Counted from the stretch's first letter, positions 395 to 12,938 are shown. The stretch is DNA of 64,000 nucleotides from Escherichia coli (GCF_003018255.1 NZ_CP027440.1); one strand, 5' to 3'. Translations and numbers: made by a program. Notes: generated by a model from the sequence alone, not told the origin.

Positions 395-589
395 GTTTTT
401 ATCCTTCTCTGGTGTGGTCTGGGAAGTGTAGAGCATGGCAGGGCGGGGCGCCTGGAGTGTGACAAAGGTTACACATCGCGGTATGCAATGCTGAAAATTT
501 CAGCACTTAGCGAGGTGCGAGCAAGCTGGCGCTTGCATGGTGGCGTGCGACAGGTATAATCCACAACGTTTTCCGCATACCTCTTCAGT

Positions 590-674
590 GCCGAAGTGGC
601 GAAATCGGTAGACGCAGTTGATTCAAAATCAACCGTAGAAATACGTGCCGGTTCGAGTCCGGCCTTCGGCACCA
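590..674 (+). tRNA. leuX: tRNA-Leu, anticodon CAA
   Basis: 85-nt GCCGAAGTGGCGAAATCGGTAGACGCAGTTGATTCAAAATCAACCGTAGAAATACGTGCCGGTTCGAGTCCGGCCTTCGGCACCA with a CAA anticodon loop, long variable arm and 3' CCA. A P4-type integrase gene follows immediately downstream. Confidence 0.9.
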
Positions 675-716
675 AGTGATGCAATAATTAGCTACCTAAG
701 GGTGGCTTTTTTTGTG

Positions 717-749
717 TCCATTTCCGTCCAAATTCGTCCATATCCGTTT
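717..749 (+). promoter_or_regulatory. Direct repeats TCCAT(T/A)TCCGT between tRNA and integrase start; candidate integrase arm-type or operator sites
   Basis: tccatttccgtcc (717-729) and tccatatccgttt (737-749) seen directly; function inferred from position. Confidence 0.3.
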
Positions 750-896
750 GTAATTCAAAGGTAATTTATTTTTCCACAATAACCATATTTATTTTGTGGT
801 CTTTCCGTGTTGGTCATTTTTCATCCATTGACATCCACGCGATTTGGGGGCCAAATTGGGGGCTTAGACGTAGTTCGATAATAGTGAGGCCCCCAA

Positions 897-2573
897 ATGG
901 CACTAACAGATCGCGCTATAGTCCACGCCAAGCCTTGTGGCAAGCCGTATAAGCTCAGTGACTCGCATGGACTTTACCTGCTGGTTAACCCTAACGGTTC
1001 AAAACGCTGGTACATCAAGTACCGCTTTGTAAACAAAGAGAAAAAGCTCGCTTTAGGCCCTTATCCGCTTTTGACGCTTGCACAGGCAAGACGCATGCGT
1101 GAAGAGGCACAATTATTGCTGATTTCCGGCATCGATCCGAGTGCACGCCGAAAAGCAGAACGCCTTGCGATAACGCCGGAACATACGTTTGAGTCTGTGG
1201 CACGTGAATGGGTCACCAGTAACGTGAACTGGTCGGCGGAACATAAGAAGCGGGTGCTGCGTTATTTCGAGCTTTACGTATTCCCCACGAACGGCAGCTG
1301 TGACATCACCAAAATGAAGGTCAAAGATCTGCTGGTGCCCATCAAGGAAGTGGAGAAAGCGGGCAAACTGGATGTTGCTTCCCGGCTTCAGCAGCGCACT
1401 GCCTGCGTGATGCGCTACGCCGTCCAGAACGGCATTATCGATCATAACCCTGCATCAGATTTAACCGGCGCGGTCTCCACGCCCAAAGTACGGCATCACC
1501 CGGCGTTGGATCTGAATCTTATCCCTGATTTCCTGGAAAGAATCGACGATTACAAAGGCCGTCAACTGACTCAACTGGCGGTAAAACTGGCACTGCTGCT
1601 GTTTATCCGCTCCAGCGAACTGCGCTTTGCCCGCTGGGATGAAATTGATCTGCGTAACGCCATGTGGACCATCCCCGCTGAGCGTGAGCCGATCCCCGGC
1701 GTTAAATATTCAGCGCGTGGGGCGAAGATGCACTCCCCACACCTGGTCCCATTGTCACGTCAGGCCATCGAACTGCTGCACGAGGTGCGGCAGCATTGCC
1801 GACCGGGAACTGAACTGGTGTTCCCCGGCGATCACAATTACCGCAAGCCGATGAGTGAAAACACCATCAACAAAGCGCTGCGGGTGATGGGCTACGACAC
1901 CCAGAAAGATGTCTGTGGCCACGGTTTTCGCACTATGGCCTGTAGCGCGCTGGTGGAGTCGGGGCTGTGGTCAAGCGACGCGGTAGAGCGCCAGATGAGC
2001 CATCAGGAGCGCAAGCGCGTGCGTGCGGCGTATATCCACAAGGCGCAGCATCTCGAAGAACGTTGGGAGATGATGCAGTGGTGGGCGGATTATCTGGATG
2101 CAAACCGGTTCAGGCATGTTGTGCCGTATGGCTTCAAAAAGTCGCCGGGAGGCGCACTCGACCATATGAGTTTCCAGGAGCGCAATGACCGGCAGCTAGA
2201 GGAGCTGAAAGCCAGAATACTGGCTGACTCGGAATGGCTGACGGCGTCTGAATTATCCGCAAAAGCGGGCTTTCGTTCCGCCGATCCTGATGCTGGTCCG
2301 AAAGGCTGGAAAGCCGCCGGGAAGATATTCTCGCTGAAGGTCGATGGTGAGGATTTATACCCTGATTATGTTCTGGATGAGAAAATGCGGCCTCTCAAGG
2401 TTGTCCGTTTGATTCTTTCACTGTTTAAGGAGCGTAAAACACCGTGGGGGCTGGCTATCTGGTTTGGCTCGGCTAATCGCAGGTTGAGAGGTGGGAGGCC
2501 GAAAGACCTGCTGATTTCGAAGTCAGAGTTGGTTCTGATGGCGGCGCAGGAGGAGGTGGAGTCGGGGGAGTAG
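897..2573 (+). CDS. P4-type tyrosine integrase with an unusual ~140-aa C-terminal extension
   Basis: 558-aa ORF starting MALTDRAIVHAKPCGKPYKLSDSHGLYLLVNPNGSKRWYIKYRF, typical P4/CP4-57-type integrase N-terminus with catalytic-domain motifs (HGFR, RAAY). The ORF runs ~140 aa beyond the usual integrase end (...WADYLDANR). Confidence 0.85.
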   Translation: MALTDRAIVHAKPCGKPYKLSDSHGLYLLVNPNGSKRWYIKYRFVNKEKKLALGPYPLLTLAQARRMREEAQLLLISGIDPSARRKAERLAITPEHTFESVAREWVTSNVNWSAEHKKRVLRYFELYVFPTNGSCDITKMKVKDLLVPIKEVEKAGKLDVASRLQQRTACVMRYAVQNGIIDHNPASDLTGAVSTPKVRHHPALDLNLIPDFLERIDDYKGRQLTQLAVKLALLLFIRSSELRFARWDEIDLRNAMWTIPAEREPIPGVKYSARGAKMHSPHLVPLSRQAIELLHEVRQHCRPGTELVFPGDHNYRKPMSENTINKALRVMGYDTQKDVCGHGFRTMACSALVESGLWSSDAVERQMSHQERKRVRAAYIHKAQHLEERWEMMQWWADYLDANRFRHVVPYGFKKSPGGALDHMSFQERNDRQLEELKARILADSEWLTASELSAKAGFRSADPDAGPKGWKAAGKIFSLKVDGEDLYPDYVLDEKMRPLKVVRLILSLFKERKTPWGLAIWFGSANRRLRGGRPKDLLISKSELVLMAAQEEVESGE

Positions 2574-3770: not shown

Positions 3771-4533
3771 AACGTTACTGAGTCAGATCAACCGTATTTG
3801 CACCGCTCAGGGGATCCCGTTTTTTATTGCAGGTGCAACGGCTCGTGAAATTCTGCTCCATCATATACACAGCAGAAGTATTGGTCGCCGAACCCGTGAT
3901 ATTGATATTGCCGTCTTTGTGGATAGCTGGCCGAGATTTGATGCGCTTAAAAATGCTTTCCTTGCTGAAGGGGCAGAAGTTGTCCAAGGTAATGCCCATC
4001 GTATGATTGTCAAAGGGATCGAGCTAGATATTATTCCTTTTGGTGGTGTTGCTGAAGGAAATCAAATTGCCTGGCCACCAGAACGTGAGATCATAATGGC
4101 TGTGGATGGATTTGCCGAAGTCTTTTCTCATACCGTAGTTGTGCGGCTGGATAACAGCGAAAATATTCCGTTCTGCTCCTTGCCAGGACTGGCTCTGTTA
4201 AAACTTTTTGCATGGCGTGATCGTGGGCATGGGAGTACTAAAGACGCGACCGATCTCTTTAAGATTATCTGTGAATATGGTGTTATCGAGAATGAACGCA
4301 TCTATGAATCGCCCGTCGAAGGGGAACGCCTGAACTGGGATCCCATACGTATGGGCGCTTTTCTGTTGGGAAGCGATATAGCGACAATTAGTGAACACTC
4401 ATCCTTGCAGGATTTACTCCATCTTGATAAAGAACGCCTGATCGATGTGATAGTACGACAACATGACGTGGGTGATGCTGGGATTGAGCAGATCATCAAT
4501 GATTTCTGGGATGGTATGGCAAGTGATGGTTGA
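3724..4533 (+). CDS. Nucleotidyltransferase-fold protein (Pol-beta superfamily; AbiEii/DUF1814-like or MNT-like)
   Basis: 269-aa ORF with the minimal NTase signature AGATAREILL...RRTRDIDIAVFVD (Gly-rich loop followed by DxD) and a downstream acidic motif GIELDIIPFG. Start codon uncertain; overlaps the upstream gene. Confidence 0.6.
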   Translation: MTNIFTLMNPISSATETLLSQINRICTAQGIPFFIAGATAREILLHHIHSRSIGRRTRDIDIAVFVDSWPRFDALKNAFLAEGAEVVQGNAHRMIVKGIELDIIPFGGVAEGNQIAWPPEREIIMAVDGFAEVFSHTVVVRLDNSENIPFCSLPGLALLKLFAWRDRGHGSTKDATDLFKIICEYGVIENERIYESPVEGERLNWDPIRMGAFLLGSDIATISEHSSLQDLLHLDKERLIDVIVRQHDVGDAGIEQIINDFWDGMASDG

Positions 4534-5692: not shown

Positions 5693-5710
5693 TATCCCCT
5701 ATAGGGGATA
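5693..5710 (+). promoter_or_regulatory. Perfect 18-bp palindrome TATCCCCTATAGGGGATA (TATCC-N8-GGATA, HipB-operator-like)
   Basis: Seen directly; it overlaps the first in-frame ATG of the downstream HTH gene, so the second ATG at 5740 is the likely start. Confidence 0.55.
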
Positions 5711-5739
5711 TGCTCAAAATATCTATCCTGGGGGATAAA

Positions 5740-6081
5740 ATGAACGTAACCTCACCCAAAATGTTGTCTCAGGCAATCAGGGATGCACGCAAGCAACGTA
5801 ACCTGACCCAGCGTGAAACTGCAGCAAGTATGGGCATGAAACAGTCAACGGTTTCAGAGTTTGAGAACCATCCTGAGGGGACCAGCCTGGATACGCTCTT
5901 TAAGCTGCTTGCCGCTCTGGACCTTAAGCTTCAGGTCGTAAGCTGGAGGGGTAAAAAAACTCTTCTGATGGCTGGGAGCAGGAGTGGTGATCTGTGGAAA
6001 TATGAACAAAAAGGCCATGGCGCTATCCGGACGGAACCACCATTTTCACTAGCGTACCATCTGGATTTCCAGAGCACATAA
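5740..6081 (+). CDS. HipB-like Xre-family HTH regulator (antitoxin-like), apparently without a HipA kinase partner
   Basis: TQRETAASMGMKQSTVSEFENHPEGTSLDTLFKLLAALDLKLQV resembles the HipB HTH core; GGGGGA ribosome-binding site before ATG 5740; no kinase-length ORF downstream. Confidence 0.6.
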   Translation: MNVTSPKMLSQAIRDARKQRNLTQRETAASMGMKQSTVSEFENHPEGTSLDTLFKLLAALDLKLQVVSWRGKKTLLMAGSRSGDLWKYEQKGHGAIRTEPPFSLAYHLDFQST

Positions 6082-6207
6082 GAGAAGCTATTTTTGCATC
6101 AGTCAGCGCGTATTCCGTAGCCATCTCGGCAGTAGTTGAAACAGTAAAAAATGCCCCTATTTCATGGCTAATTAACCGCTAAATTCCAGCCATGGAGGAA
6201 ACCACCG

Positions 6208-10757: not shown

Positions 10758-11048
10758 GGTGTTTCTCCTGTAAATGAGCAGGGAACACCCTTCGCAGGGC
10801 GTTTCCCTGCGGGATGGAATGGTACGGGTATCCTGCGCATCTGCGCCGTTCGCACCTTCCGGATACATGGCGAACTTACTGCATGGCTGGCGGTAGTGTT
10901 TTCTGCGCGGGTGATAAAAGGGAGGGGAAAATCATTACTGGGGCTGAAGAGTTTTGTCGTTCCTGAAATGTGAACACAGGTAGATTGATGCGCACGCATC
11001 GCTCAAAAAACGATCTTTTTCAGGCGGATACTGAAATCAGAAAAGCAT

Positions 11049-11291
11049 ATGACCTTGAACAGTAAACACAATGACTGGAGGGATATGCTAATGAACCGAC
11101 AAGATATAAACGCATTAAAGAATTTTGATTTTCTGGCGCGCAGTTTTGCCCGTATGCACGCCCTGGGCCAGCCAGTTGATATCGATGCCGTTACCGGCAA
11201 TATGAGTGATGAACAGCAAGCATGGTTCCGGGAGCGATACGACCACTACCGAAAGCAGGCTGAGCGGGCGAGAGTGATAGAACTGCGGTGA
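11049..11291 (+). CDS. Hypothetical small protein (80 aa)
   Basis: ORF followed directly by a rho-independent terminator. Confidence 0.35.
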
Positions 11292-11300
11292 TGTAACGAA

Positions 11301-11330
11301 CAACGGGCTTAACGGCCCGTTGCGTTTTTT
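11301..11330 (+). terminator. Rho-independent terminator
   Basis: Stem caacgggc / gcccgttg followed by TTTTTT (11325-11330). Confidence 0.5.
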
Positions 11331-11373
11331 CAGACTCCAGCTACCTACCACGAGATTGTCACTGACACGACAG

Positions 11374-11397
11374 TTTATGCGGTGCGCATAAACTCAG
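11374..11397 (+). repeat. Conserved inverted-repeat motif TTTATGCGGTGCGCATAAA(C)TCAG, copy 1 of 2
   Basis: Matches 49043-49066 (19/19 bp plus flanking TCAG) in the same orientation; both copies lie in intergenic DNA bounding ICE operons. Confidence 0.5.
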
Positions 11398-11435: not shown

Positions 11436-12938
11436 TCAGGGAATGCGTGTTTTACTGACGATCATCTTCCCGACCTGTTCGCCAGCGCTGCGGATATCGC
11501 CGACCGCGCTGCCCATCCCCCCAGCGACTGCTGCGCCGATCCTGATGCCCGCCCACGTCAGCGCCCCCAGCCAGAATGCGGGTAACACCAGGAACATCAC
11601 GCCCATAATGATATTTACAATCAGATCGTCGGAGGTGTTTTGCAGGCCCCAGAGGTTGAAGTATGAGTGGGTATCGCTGTCGTACATCATCTGCATCAGC
11701 CAGTTATCCAGCCAGCGGGCCAGTTCCCACCAGAAGGTGAGAAAGAACAGGGCGAACTGCACAAAGCTCAGCGTGATGACCGTTTTAAGATCCCATGCCG
11801 AGAACAGCAGAATTACTGGAATACAAATCACCAGCGCCATTTCGAGGAACGCCTGCACCATCGGCAGCGCCTGGCGGACGTTATCAAACGCCGGAAACAG
11901 GGCGTAGCTCGAAAGCCCCGCGCCGATGATCCCGCCCACACGACTCAGCAACTGCGTCTGGCTGAGGTTATCCCCCGCACTCCCACCAAACCCGTTGTAC
12001 ACCAGTCCGCCCTGCGATACCTGCATATTGCGCGGGCTGACCAGCGAGCGCAGTACCGCTTCTTCATACTCCTCTTTAGACTGTCCCAGTTTTTGCAGTT
12101 GCTGCCAGAGCGTGGTATCGACCTGCTTCAGCAGGCGGTTTTTCAGCCCCGTATCGCCATCGGACCACCACTCCTTACACGCAGGATAGCCACCGCCACC
12201 CGTATCGCTCAGACCGTCGTCGCGGCTGGCGTCATAAGGCCAGGCGGCGCGGGGCGAACGGGAGTGATCGCGGTCGTAATAGCCTAGCGTGGCGAGGTAA
12301 AAAGACGATCCCACCCAGTCCACTTCCCGGCTTTGCTCCTCGCTAATATCGCTACTCAGCCGCTTGAGCCTTGCCCGCGACGGCCCGTAGCAGTCGTTAA
12401 CGAAATCCTGTAGCTCCTGCGCCAGTGCCGGATCGGCGAGCCGGGTGTGCTGCACCTCAAAGCGCAACTGGCGCAGGTCCGGCTTGCAGGGCAATACGGC
12501 GACGGCGGCGCTGGTGATGCCTTTGCCCAGTGCATGCGTGAAGTACCACCACACTGGAACGGAAGCGCTCTGGCCGCTGAGTTCATTAATCAAAGGTGCG
12601 TAGCCGGAATCGCCGGGCTGTACCACCGACCAGCCGCACTGCTTTGTGCGCTGGCTGTCGTAGGTGAGGGTGTTGATATCGACATTGAGGAACGGCACAC
12701 CCGCGAAGAAGATCACCAGCAGTGCGCTGTAGAGCGAGTGCTCCACCCAGACGACCAGCAGGCGGGCGACGTTGCCTTCATCGGCCCCCTGGCCGCGCGC
12801 TTTCAGCCACAGGGCAACCAGTTTTGCCAGCAGGGGCACGGCGAACAGCCCGGTGGCGGTCAGCGTCTGCCACACGCCGTTATTCACCAGCCAGCCGAGC
12901 AGGGTGAGCACGTACTCGAAATAGCTGTTGGCGGTCAT
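11436..12938 (-). CDS. ICE conjugative-transfer integral membrane protein (TraG N-terminal-domain-like)
   Basis: 500-aa hydrophobic multi-pass ORF in an operon with TraH-like and TraU-like genes. Confidence 0.5.
   Translation of the reverse strand: MTANSYFEYVLTLLGWLVNNGVWQTLTATGLFAVPLLAKLVALWLKARGQGADEGNVARLLVVWVEHSLYSALLVIFFAGVPFLNVDINTLTYDSQRTKQCGWSVVQPGDSGYAPLINELSGQSASVPVWWYFTHALGKGITSAAVAVLPCKPDLRQLRFEVQHTRLADPALAQELQDFVNDCYGPSRARLKRLSSDISEEQSREVDWVGSSFYLATLGYYDRDHSRSPRAAWPYDASRDDGLSDTGGGGYPACKEWWSDGDTGLKNRLLKQVDTTLWQQLQKLGQSKEEYEEAVLRSLVSPRNMQVSQGGLVYNGFGGSAGDNLSQTQLLSRVGGIIGAGLSSYALFPAFDNVRQALPMVQAFLEMALVICIPVILLFSAWDLKTVITLSFVQFALFFLTFWWELARWLDNWLMQMMYDSDTHSYFNLWGLQNTSDDLIVNIIMGVMFLVLPAFWLGALTWAGIRIGAAVAGGMGSAVGDIRSAGEQVGKMIVSKTRIP

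What the first reader, a model, noticed from the sequence alone, without database searches (positions are those of the whole stretch)
11374..11397. Conserved ~24-bp inverted-repeat motif present twice, 37.7 kb apart, bracketing the ICE transfer region
TTTATGCGGTGCGCATAAA followed by (A/C)TCAG occurs at 11374-11397 and 49043-49066 in the same orientation, both in intergenic DNA at operon boundaries. The 8-bp arms with a 3-bp spacer look like a dimeric regulator binding site; alternatives are a recombination site or a conserved terminator.
Basis: seen in the sequence. Interest (0 to 1): 0.45.

Follow-up and report, generated by a model that had tools for sequence, protein, structure and literature searches.

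The report
ICE palindrome: conserved protein-binding site plus stray copy
The 19-base palindrome near 49 kb is the one-copy enterobacterial version of a palindromic repeat found in mobile elements of the pKLC102/SPI-7/ICEclc family, most likely a docking site for the element's own ParB-like DNA clamp. The second copy near 11.4 kb occurs in this strain lineage only, at the spot where sister elements carry a restriction gene.

Summary
TTTATGCGGTGCGCATAAA occurs exactly twice (11374-11392 and 49043-49061), in the same orientation and in intergenic DNA; 0.04 matches are expected by chance.

The two copies are not equivalent.

**Copy 2.** It lies between the STY4528-family gene and the PFL_4669/AcaB-like gene. 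Its arms are invariant in eight related integrative conjugative elements (ICEs) whose STY4528 proteins fall to 59% identity, while the spacer and flanks vary. At the same position, other family members carry palindromes of the same build:
- a Salmonella SPI-7-like ICE has 2+2 copies;
- Pantoea and SGI4 have 3 to 7 or more copies;
- pKLC102 has 16 x 57-bp repeats, published as a putative oriV, some of them parS-like.

The ICE encodes a ParB/KorB/Noc-fold protein 1.4 kb upstream. Its ICEclc homologue BisD loads at two palindromic bisS sites. My best reading is therefore a ParB-type loading site. The binding protein is inferred, not shown.

**Copy 1.** It exists in only 2 of 44 E. coli relatives. 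It is absent downstream of traG in four other ICEs of the clade. It sits where sister ICEs carry an SBD-HNH restriction gene whose codons V-C-A-P-H-K spell 16 of the 19 bases.

The transfer region is bracketed in this window, but that layout is not conserved. The terminator reading is not supported.

The parts
49043..49061 (.). Copy 2: conserved palindrome, 8-bp arms with a 3-nt spacer. On the ICE coding (-) strand it reads TTTATGCG-CAC-CGCATAAA.
   Evidence: Exact match. TTTATGCG and CCGCATAAA are invariant in 8 ICEs while two spacer positions vary. Positional homologue of the pKLC102, PFGI-1 and SPI-7 palindromic repeats.
11374..11392 (.). Copy 1: lineage-specific second copy in the cargo hotspot between traG and the ArdC/MobH operon
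   Evidence: Exact match. Present in only 2 of 44 E. coli relatives. Sister ICEs carry an SBD-HNH gene here that reads CGTATGCGCGCCGCATAAA. Absent in four other ICEs of the clade.
49024..49029 (-). Invariant CTATCA block about 13 nt downstream of copy 2 on the coding strand. It is also present after the last palindrome in pKLC102 and the SPI-7-like ICE.
   Evidence: Alignment A6; pKLC102 GGGCTATCAAC; L018 GCCTATCAAT
48938..48944 (-). Invariant ACACTGC block in the regulatory region upstream of the PFL_4669/AcaB-like gene
   Evidence: Alignment A6
48916..48921 (-). Ribosome-binding site GGAGAA of the PFL_4669/AcaB-like gene
   Evidence: GGAG is invariant in alignment A6
50472..51779 (-). ParB-family protein (TIGR03764, BisD-like): the candidate binder
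   Evidence: NCBIfam E = 2.7e-85. GGNTR motif invariant. The AF2 model matches Noc, KorB and ParB at E = 1e-6 to 1e-4.
49931..50488 (-). DUF2857 protein (BisC-like partner)
   Evidence: Pfam DUF2857, E = 2.1e-57
49069..49941 (-). STY4528-family 'replication protein': the rival candidate binder
   Evidence: NCBIfam NF040582, E = 5.2e-78
48298..48909 (-). PFL_4669 / AcaB-family gene, first gene downstream of copy 2
   Evidence: TIGR03761 E = 7e-35; Pfam AcaB E = 1e-32
51772..51972 (-). alpA, first gene of the alpA-parB-DUF2857-STY4528 operon
   Evidence: Pfam Phage_AlpA, E = 1.9e-18
11436..12938 (-). traG (TraG_N), last gene of the transfer region; copy 1 lies 44 nt after its stop
11301..11331 (+). 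Intrinsic terminator of the convergent glgS-like gene (11091-11291)
61069..61217 (-). N-terminal fragment of another SBD-HNH gene (…GEQRAPHKPLLLL…), showing the usual coding CAGCGCGCGCCGCATAAG

Best explanation
Copy 2 (49043-49061) is a sequence-specific binding site for a dimeric protein encoded by the ICE. It is the single-unit, enterobacterial version of the palindromic repeat that every examined branch of the pKLC102/PFGI-1/SPI-7/SGI4 family carrying the STY4528 gene has between that gene and the PFL_4669 (AcaB/InrR-like) gene. That repeat was published as a putative oriV. The most likely binder is the ParB/KorB-fold protein encoded 1.4 kb upstream, a BisD homologue. By analogy with ICEclc BisD at its bisS sites, it would load there as a nucleotide-dependent clamp. 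It would then spread in the direction of transcription over the transfer genes and, together with the DUF2857 partner, switch on transfer promoters, or act as a centromere. Copy 1 (11374-11392) is a recent addition specific to this lineage. It lies in the cargo hotspot after traG, at the place where sister ICEs carry an SBD-HNH restriction gene whose codons V-C-A-P-H-K already spell 16 of the 19 bases. It is most probably what remains of that gene after deletion, brought to exact identity with copy 2 by a short templated patch or conversion. If it is functional, it would be a second loading site just upstream of the ArdC-MobH relaxase operon. Shown here: the conservation, the positional homology, the ParB fold and the distribution of both copies. 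Inferred: who binds, the clamp loading and spreading, and how copy 1 arose.
For: Conservation. In 8 ICEs whose STY4528 proteins are 59-95% identical to the window's, TTTATGCG and CCGCATAAA never change. Two spacer positions vary (CAC, CGC, TAC). Mean column identity of the intergenic region is 63%.

Family-wide positional homology, always between STY4528 and PFL_4669:
- the Salmonella SPI-7-like ICE has TGATGCCA(C/G)TGGCATCA, 2+2 copies about 60 bp apart;
- pKLC102 has 16 x 57-bp repeats with TGATGCGgccCGCATCA, TGTTTCCAgTGGAAACA and TGGTGCCAcTGGCACCA;
- the P. veronii plasmid has about 11 copies of GTGTTGCGGCCCGCAACAC;
- the Pantoea plasmid has 3 copies of TGTTGCAgccTGCAACA, and SGI4 has at least 7 copies of TGCTGGCAcTGCCAGCA;
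- the PFGI-1 putative oriV is described immediately upstream of PFL_4669.
All are followed by a CTATCAA block.

parS likeness. Some units resemble the Pseudomonas parS TGTTCCACGTGGAACA quoted. A classical parB on a Marinobacter plasmid is followed by 3 copies of ATTCCCGnnnCGGGAAT, the same arm/spacer geometry.

The candidate binder. The window protein is TIGR03764 (E = 2.7e-85) and keeps GGNTR. Its AF2 model matches Noc 7nfu (E = 1.4e-6), KorB 8qa9 and ParB 6sdk/7bnr. Its helix-turn-helix recognition helix differs between clades with different palindromes.

Experimental precedent. ICEclc BisD loads at two palindromic bisS sites near inrR and spreads about 50 km... [corrected] about 50 kb along the direction of transcription. 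No ICEclc-type bisS was found in the first 100 kb of the 103.5-kb pKLC102 sequence (the last 3.5 kb were not fetched), and all parS-like palindromes found there lie in the array.

Copy 1. It is present in 2 of 44 genomes. An SBD-HNH gene occupies the locus in the others, with CGTATGCGCGCCGCATAAA at the V-C-A-P-H-K codons. The region after traG is a variable cargo hotspot with no motif in four other ICEs.
Against: No binding data exist for any of these palindromes.

The verified ICEclc bisS (GAGCTATCCCCnGGGGATAGCTC) has no sequence similarity to this motif, lies inside inrR and ssb rather than upstream of inrR, and has no match in the window at up to 3 mismatches.

The clade's ParB-like protein is about 115-150 aa shorter than BisD and the pKLC102 protein and lacks their C-terminal region. 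It has ESDLH where BisD has ENELR, so both activation and CTP hydrolysis may differ.

Sequence searches alone did not link it to solved ParB structures.

STY4528 and TIGR03764 ParB co-occur in every element that has the palindromes, so the comparison cannot separate the two candidate binders.

The recognition-helix covariation rests on only 3-4 clades.

The origin of copy 1 is undecided: its flanks resemble neither the flanks of copy 2 nor the SBD gene significantly. SBD genes show ordinary synonymous variation at the look-alike site, so the SBD resemblance could be partly coincidental.
Confidence: 0.55

Rival explanations
1. Iteron or oriV reading. The palindrome is the binding site of the STY4528-family helix-turn-helix 'replication protein' encoded immediately upstream. 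It marks the vegetative origin of the excised ICE, as originally proposed for the pKLC102 and PFGI-1 repeats. The enterobacterial ICEs would keep a minimal one-iteron origin.
For: The site begins 8 nt after the STY4528 stop, which is a rep-then-iterons layout. NCBIfam names the family a replication protein. The literature calls the homologous arrays putative oriV. pKLC102, which exists as a plasmid, has the largest array at 16 units. STY4528 is present in every element that has the palindromes.
Against: Iterons are normally asymmetric direct repeats, whereas these units are perfect palindromes, some parS-like, which suits a ParB-type dimer. The oriV label is a prediction from sequence in the papers I could read, and PFGI-1 is stated there to encode no Rep protein. 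A single site is a poor iteron origin. In ICEclc, replication of the excised element depends on TraI and oriT1.
Confidence: 0.2
2. Local operator reading. The palindrome is the operator of another ICE regulator (autoregulation by the AcaB/InrR-like protein, AlpA, or an Xre-type repressor). It would control only the promoter of the PFL_4669-DUF3158-topB operon. Copy 1 would be a non-functional stray.
For: Copy 2 sits 134 nt upstream of the PFL_4669 start, in a region with further invariant blocks (CTATCA, ACACTGC) that look like promoter or activator elements. PFL_4669 belongs to the AcaB transcription-regulator family. The exact 19-mer also occurs in a P4/CP4-57-like element in Kluyvera, a class of element that, from my own knowledge, commonly encodes AlpA-family regulators; no alpA gene was seen at that locus.
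Against: Tandem arrays of up to 16 sites are not typical of a simple operator. AlpA-family proteins are not known to bind perfect palindromes (my own knowledge). No sigma-70-like promoter was detected in the region.
Confidence: 0.12
3. Dual-oriT reading. The two copies are recognition hairpins of two origins of transfer for the MobH relaxase, as in ICEclc. ICEclc has two functional oriTs, said (from my memory of the abstract) to share a repeat motif in different sequence contexts.
For: ICEclc has two oriTs used by one MOBH relaxase, and oriT1 also supports replication of the excised ICE. Copy 1 lies about 0.5 kb upstream of the operon that ends in mobH. A strand-displacement mode has been suggested for pKLC102.
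Against: Copy 1 is missing from 42 of 44 E. coli relatives and from four other ICEs of the clade. Homologues of copy 2 are tandem arrays of symmetric sites, unlike known oriTs. I could not obtain the ICEclc oriT positions or sequences, so no membership test was possible.
Confidence: 0.06
4. RNA hairpin reading. The palindrome works in the transcript as a terminator or a stabilising hairpin at operon ends.
For: Both copies lie just downstream of a minus-strand stop codon. The hairpin folds at -11.7 to -12 kcal/mol, z about -2.2 to -2.8.
Against: There is no U tract, and the consensus terminator scan does not call it. Across 8 ICEs the 16 arm positions never vary, so there is no compensatory change, while the loop does vary; this is the signature of sequence-specific rather than structural constraint. 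Homologues occur as arrays of 2-16 units. No Rfam family matches.
Confidence: 0.04

Closest known systems
Putative oriV repeats of pKLC102 (16 x 57 bp) and PFGI-1 (4 x 46 bp, each with a 21-bp inverted repeat), immediately upstream of PFL_4669
   Same: Same position between the STY4528-family and PFL_4669-family genes. Same build: 8-9-bp arms with a 1-3-nt spacer. The first pKLC102 unit, TGATGCGgccCGCATCA, shares the core ATGCGnnnCGCAT. The same CTATCAA block follows.
   Different: There is one unit instead of a tandem array. The outer arm bases are TTT/AAA instead of GTG/CAC. This window has an extra copy 37.7 kb away, whereas the pKLC102 palindromes found in the 100 kb scanned all lie in the array. 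Origin function has not been demonstrated in anything I could read.
bisS sites of ICEclc, bound by the ParB-like CTP clamp BisD (Antar et al., NAR 2025, PMC12409273)
   Same: Same ICE family and same gene neighbourhood (alpA/parB-like/DUF2857/STY4528 = orf96323/inrR-like). Both are palindromic sites, present in two copies in ICEclc, near the upstream end of a long co-directional block of transfer genes. The window protein keeps GNTR and has a ParB/KorB/Noc fold.
   Different: The sequences are unrelated: GAGCTATCCCCnGGGGATAGCTC with 11-bp arms and a 1-nt spacer. The bisS sites lie inside inrR and ssb, 2 kb apart, not upstream of inrR and 37.7 kb apart. The window protein lacks the C-terminal region that the SPI-7-like, pKLC102 and P. 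veronii homologues carry, and it is about 115 aa shorter than BisD.
Plasmid centromeres and operators bound by ParB-family proteins: parS, F sopC (12 x 43-bp repeats each with an inverted repeat), RK2 KorB operator TTTAGCSGCTAAA. The last two are recalled from my own knowledge.
   Same: Short perfect palindromes next to a parB-type gene, single or in tandem arrays with a period of tens of bp. A Marinobacter plasmid shows 3 copies of ATTCCCGnnnCGGGAAT right after a classical parB. The outer TTTA…TAAA is shared with the KorB operator.
   Different: No ParA gene is annotated in this E. coli ICE. The spacer is 3 nt. No binding has been shown.
N-terminal APHKP motif of SBD-HNH (ScoMcrA-type) phosphorothioate-dependent restriction endonucleases
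   Same: On the minus strand the motif reads L-C-A-P-H-K. The SBD gene at the copy-1 locus in sister ICEs reads V-C-A-P-H-K = GTATGCGCGCCGCATAAA, a 17-nt run identical to the Klebsiella/S. bongori form of the motif.
   Different: Copy 1 is not in an open reading frame: a stop lies 3 codons upstream and 4 codons downstream. Copy 2 cannot be a gene relic because its arms are conserved across ICEs while everything around diverges. SBD genes vary synonymously at this site.

Membership tests
pKLC102/PFGI-1-type palindromic repeat (published as putative oriV) | Lies between the STY4528-family gene and the PFL_4669-family gene | tested here: met
   Copy 2. Same position in L013-L018, L020, L021, L031, L033. 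Copy 1 does not meet this feature.
pKLC102/PFGI-1-type palindromic repeat (published as putative oriV) | Inverted repeat with 7-10-bp arms and a short (1-3 nt) spacer, core (T/G)NTGC…GCAN(A/C) | tested here: met
   TTTATGCG-nnn-CGCATAAA against TGATGCGgccCGCATCA, TGTTGCCAcTGGCAACA and others
pKLC102/PFGI-1-type palindromic repeat (published as putative oriV) | Tandem direct repetition (36-60-bp period, 2-16 units) | tested here: not met
   There is a single unit at this position in all 8 ICEs of the enterobacterial clade
pKLC102/PFGI-1-type palindromic repeat (published as putative oriV) | Supports autonomous replication | not testable with these tools
   Needs a replication assay. The papers I could read only predict it.
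ParB-family loading site (parS / bisS / KorB operator type) | Short palindrome close to a gene for a ParB-fold protein with a GxxR nucleotide pocket and a helix-turn-helix | tested here: met
   Copy 2 is 1.4 kb downstream of the TIGR03764 gene. GGNTR is invariant. The AF2 model matches Noc, KorB and ParB.
ParB-family loading site (parS / bisS / KorB operator type) | Sequence match to the verified ICEclc bisS | tested here: not met
   No matches at up to 3 mismatches in the window; none at up to 5 in the 100 kb of pKLC102 scanned
ParB-family loading site (parS / bisS / KorB operator type) | Specific binding, site-stimulated CTPase, and spreading from the site | not testable with these tools
   Needs EMSA, ChIP-seq and an NTPase assay
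ParB-family loading site (parS / bisS / KorB operator type) | Site sequence covaries with the recognition helix of the ParB-like protein | tested here: inconclusive
   (S/T)QS(Q/K/R)ISRM goes with TTTATGCG; HQSHISRM, SHSHISRM and SASHLSRM go with TG.TGC…. There are only 3-4 clades, and every other ICE protein also differs between them.
Intrinsic terminator | GC-rich stem followed by a U tract | tested here: not met
   Neither copy is called; no T run follows on either strand
Dispersed extragenic palindrome (REP-like) | Many copies per genome and across genomes | tested here: not met
   The 19-mer (with Y in the spacer) occurs in only 5 of about 100,000 species genomes, one copy each
MOBH oriT (ICEclc dual oriT) | Conserved cis site nicked by the MobH relaxase, present in related ICEs | tested here: inconclusive
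   Copy 1 is not conserved. The ICEclc oriT sequences could not be obtained, and nicking is not testable here.

The most novel reading that the evidence does not exclude
The palindromic repeats between STY4528 and PFL_4669, annotated for two decades as oriV iterons of pKLC102, PFGI-1 and SPI-7-type islands, would in fact be parS-like loading sites for BisD-type ParB clamps, with site sequences that have diversified clade by clade. In that reading the ICEclc bisS is only one variant. The enterobacterial clade would work with a single site, and this E. coli ICE would have gained a second, functional loading site just before the relaxase operon by recycling the V-C-A-P-H-K codons of a decayed restriction gene.
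Probability: 0.2. Interest if true: 0.7.

Novelty: new variant of a known kind. Interest (0 to 1): 0.45.

Why it matters
ICEs of this family spread virulence, catabolic and resistance genes across Proteobacteria. How their roughly 40-50 kb of transfer genes are switched on together was only recently explained for ICEclc, by a ParB-like clamp that loads at bisS and slides.

If the palindrome studied here is the loading site in enterobacterial ICEs, three things follow:
- the clamp model extends beyond Pseudomonas;
- there is a simple 19-bp handle to test it, by EMSA, ChIP or site deletion;
- the 'oriV' annotation of the homologous arrays in pKLC102, PFGI-1, SPI-7 and SGI4 would need revisiting.

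The practical lesson for the scan is that the eye-catching two-copy symmetry is a lineage-specific accident. Only one of the two copies carries the conserved biology.

Tried and rejected
1. Copy 2 as a relic of an SBD-HNH gene (it reads L-C-A-P-H-K, and the downstream frame loosely resembles SBD). Rejected because the arms are invariant across 8 ICEs while the flanks diverge, and because other clades have different palindromes at the same position.

2. The look-alike inside the SBD gene as a selected second site. Not supported. Among 110 homologues the series DQR to DQC to DVC follows phylogeny, and the DNA varies synonymously: CATAAA, CATAAG, CACAAA.

3. Extended homology between the flanks of the two copies, or between copy 1 and the SBD gene. 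Anchored alignment scores are not significant, and the low-gap-cost global alignment was over-fitted.

4. Terminator. The scans are negative.

5. Known RNA family. Rfam is negative.

6. ICEclc bisS pattern in the window and in pKLC102. Absent in what was scanned.

7. Sequence-only searches of the ParB-like protein against Pfam and the PDB. Only a weak ArgR-type helix-turn-helix hit appeared; the fold search was needed.

8. More divergent traG relatives in E. coli (UTI89, 536, ST131). They are decayed island remnants and uninformative.

9. E. coli strain IH5 hit H45. It lies in a scrambled region and was ignored.

10. Original papers on the ICEclc oriTs and the pKLC102 oriV. Neither is held in the library, so what I say about them rests on secondary citations or on memory and is marked as such.

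11. Marinobacter, Pantoea and SGI4 plasmids, used to try to separate ParB from STY4528 as the binder. The two genes are present or absent together, so the test was uninformative.

Full report
**What the window is.** The window matches the chromosome of E. coli JNE23-011 at 100% identity. It holds an integrative conjugative element (ICE) of the PFGI-1/pKLC102/SPI-7/ICEclc class inserted next to a tRNA-Leu gene. The core genes run on the minus strand:
- alpA (51.9 kb), a ParB-family gene, DUF2857, STY4528, a PFL_4669/AcaB-like gene, DUF3158 and topB;
- then the type IV secretion genes down to traG (11.4 kb);
- then, beyond a convergent glgS-like gene, a 96-aa ORF, ArdC and the MobH relaxase.

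The element looks decayed in this strain: the integrase is truncated and topB has an internal stop.

**The observation.** TTTATGCGGTGCGCATAAA occurs exactly at 11374-11392 and 49043-49061. Both copies have the same spacer orientation, and 0.04 matches are expected by chance. Both are intergenic. No further copy exists in the window. Beyond the 19 bases the flanks are not significantly similar.

**Copy 2 is a conserved element.** It lies 8 nt after the STY4528 stop and 134 nt before the PFL_4669/AcaB-like start. I retrieved the same intergenic region from ICEs whose STY4528 proteins are 95, 91, 75, 67, 61 and 59% identical to the window's, plus an Atlantibacter ICE.
- In all eight, TTTATGCG and CCGCATAAA are invariant.
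- Two spacer positions vary (CAC, CGC, TAC).
- The region as a whole has only 63% mean column identity.
- The arms show no compensatory change; they are simply invariant.

That is the signature of sequence-specific recognition by a symmetric protein rather than of an RNA stem. The hairpin is modest (about -12 kcal/mol), has no U tract and is not called as a terminator. No Rfam family matches.

**The same position in other branches of the family holds palindromes of the same build but different sequence.**
- A Salmonella SPI-7-like ICE has TGATGCCA(C/G)TGGCATCA in two pairs, about 60 bp apart within each pair.
- pKLC102 has sixteen 57-bp repeats, each with a palindrome. The first is TGATGCGgccCGCATCA, which shares ATGCGnnnCGCAT with the window motif. 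Others are TGTTTCCAgTGGAAACA and TGGTGCCAcTGGCACCA.
- A P. veronii plasmid has about eleven copies of GTGTTGCGGCCCGCAACAC.
- A Pantoea plasmid has three copies of TGTTGCAgccTGCAACA, and Salmonella SGI4 has at least seven copies of TGCTGGCAcTGCCAGCA.

In every case a CTATCAA block follows the last palindrome. This is the region the literature calls the putative oriV of pKLC102 and PFGI-1, described as 'immediately upstream of PFL_4669', with 46-bp repeats each holding a 21-bp inverted repeat. Copy 2 is therefore the single-unit, enterobacterial member of a known, family-wide cis element.

**Who binds it.** Two ICE proteins are the natural candidates.

*The ParB-family protein encoded 1.4 kb upstream.*
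- It is TIGR03764 (E = 2.7e-85) and keeps an invariant GGNTR nucleotide-pocket motif.
- Plain sequence searches against Pfam and the PDB were silent. An AlphaFold2 model (pLDDT 71.6) nevertheless matches Noc, KorB and ParB structures over about 250 columns at E = 1e-6 to 1e-4. All three proteins bind short palindromes.
- In ICEclc, the homologous protein BisD was shown in 2025 to load at two palindromic bisS sites next to inrR. It spreads about 50 kb in the direction of transcription and, with the DUF2857 protein BisC, activates the transfer promoters.
- Several pKLC102 units resemble the Pseudomonas parS quoted in that paper (TGTTCCACGTGGAACA).
- A classical parB on a Marinobacter plasmid is followed by three ATTCCCGnnnCGGGAAT sites with the same 3-nt-spacer geometry.
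- The first 100 kb of pKLC102 hold no ICEclc-type bisS, and the parS-like palindromes found there all lie in the array. Its BisD homologue must therefore load somewhere else, and the array is the obvious place.
- The predicted recognition helix differs between clades with different palindromes, but with only three or four clades this is weak.

*The STY4528 helix-turn-helix 'replication protein'.* This is the published iteron/oriV reading. STY4528 and the ParB-like gene are present or absent together in everything I examined, so comparison cannot separate them. I favour the ParB-type loading site at about 0.5, conditional on the element being a protein-binding site (about 0.85), and I keep the iteron reading at 0.2.

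*Caveats.*
- The verified ICEclc bisS is unrelated in sequence, lies inside inrR and ssb, and has no match in the window.
- The clade's ParB-like protein is shorter and lacks the C-terminal region of its Pseudomonas homologues.
- The window protein has ESDLH where BisD has ENELR.

**Copy 1 is a different matter.**
- Among 44 E. coli genomes carrying this ICE lineage, only two, both Japanese human isolates, have it.
- In the others, an 873-bp SBD-HNH gene (a ScoMcrA-type restriction enzyme that binds phosphorothioated DNA) lies between traG and the glgS-like gene. All 18 non-identical hits listed show this gene, and 41 records fall in the same identity band.
- On the minus strand the motif reads L-C-A-P-H-K. 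The SBD gene reads V-C-A-P-H-K = CGTATGCGCGCCGCATAAA at the corresponding place. That is 16 of 19 bases of the window motif, and a 17-nt run identical to the Klebsiella/S. bongori form.
- The resemblance is largely explained by the coding of the family's conserved APHKP motif. Among 110 homologues, (D/E)QRAPHKP dominates, and DQC and then DVC appear in the lineages closest to the ICE-borne gene. The DNA shows ordinary synonymous variation. I therefore found no evidence that the palindrome is selected inside the gene.
- The region after traG is a cargo hotspot. It holds type I restriction-modification genes, a PemK toxin-antitoxin pair or an unknown ORF in four other ICEs of the clade, none with a motif copy.
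- The palindromes found in pKLC102 are confined to the array.

Copy 1 is thus not part of a conserved two-site design. Most probably it is what was left when the SBD gene was deleted, brought to exact identity with copy 2 (including the E. coli-type spacer) by a short templated patch or conversion seeded on the 13-17-nt microhomology. A short insertion copied from copy 2 is an equally possible route, and the flanks cannot decide between them. If the binder is a sliding clamp, copy 1 could act as a second loading site just upstream of the ArdC-MobH operon. That is speculation.

**Other rivals.**
- *A local operator for the AcaB-like protein, AlpA or an Xre protein.* It would control only the adjacent promoter. 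This fits the position of copy 2 and the invariant blocks nearby, but not the 16-unit arrays.
- *A dual oriT, as in ICEclc.* It is attractive on paper, but it conflicts with the non-conservation of copy 1 and with the tandem symmetric arrays. I could not obtain the ICEclc oriT sequences.
- *A recombination site.* Its only support is the duplication of the palindrome module on both sides of a cargo insertion in the Salmonella ICE.

**Verdict.**
- The finding is real.
- The bracketing architecture is an accident of this lineage.
- The element belongs to a known kind, the pKLC102/PFGI-1 'oriV' palindromes, as a new single-unit variant with a distinct sequence.
- The link to the BisD clamp is, as far as the searchable literature shows, not yet made, and it is directly testable.

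Noticed in passing
window 5693-5710 and about 5725-5738: A perfect palindrome TATCCCCTATAGGGGATA, plus an imperfect second copy (TATCCTGGGGGATA), lies 31 bp upstream of a helix-turn-helix gene (5741-6082, +). The inner 7+7 bases equal the inner arms of the ICEclc bisS (TATCCCC…GGGGATA), but the spacer is 4 nt rather than 1. It looks like an Xre-type operator pair, though a relation to BisD sites is not excluded.
   Followed up: partly
L018 11500-11600 and 14330-14425 (Salmonella SPI-7-like ICE): An approximately 80-bp module with two palindromes is duplicated on both sides of a 2.7-kb cargo insertion (HNH_2, AbiEii, DUF6088) between STY4528 and the AcaB-like gene. This suggests cargo is acquired by recombination at or next to the palindromes.
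   Followed up: partly
L007 1042-1060 (Kluyvera ascorbata); L012 about 4004-4022 (E. coli MFDS1022581): The exact 19-mer also occurs in a P4/CP4-57-like 'ash' region of Kluyvera, precisely at the edge of the block shared with E. coli. The E. coli homologue has TTTATGCAGCGCGCATAG there. The relation to the ICE motif is unexplained.
   Followed up: partly
L010 1774-1798 and 9102-9120 (Tidjanibacter MAG): A Bacteroidota genome carries TTTATGCGCACCGCATAAAACCTTG, 25 nt identical to the Kluyvera sequence, plus a degenerate second copy in repeated promoter-like intergenic DNA. It is probably unrelated.
   Followed up: no
window 50472-51779 (-): The ParB-like protein has ESDLH at the position of the ParB ENxxR motif. 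Most relatives have ENDLH/K/Q and ICEclc BisD has ENELR. It also lacks the roughly 100-aa C-terminal region present in the SPI-7-like, pKLC102 and P. veronii homologues. Nucleotide hydrolysis and activation may therefore differ in this clade.
   Followed up: partly
window 580-1830; 45886-47691; about 61069-61217: The ICE looks decayed in this strain. The integrase lacks its C-terminus, topoisomerase III has an internal stop, and an N-terminal fragment of a second SBD-HNH gene lies near the right end.
   Followed up: partly
window 10985-11002: A palindrome TTGATGCGCACGCATCGC (GATGCG-CA-CGCATC) sits upstream of the glgS-like gene, about 390 bp from copy 1. It shares the ATGCG/CGCAT core with the motif.
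   Followed up: no
L020 4994-5057, L021 5257-5373, L031 4652-4670, L033 4913-4929: Palindromes GAGTTCGGnnTCCGAACTC lie inside the STY4528-family genes of Pseudomonas, Pantoea and SGI4 elements. They correspond to the ICEclc candidate 'bisS-3' (CTTCGGAtTCCGAAG in orf96323), which did not bind BisD. I found none in the window's STY4528 gene.
   Followed up: partly
window 11091-11291 (+): A glgS-like gene (annotated 'cell surface composition regulator GlgS') is carried as ICE cargo, convergent with traG and with its own strong terminator.
   Followed up: no
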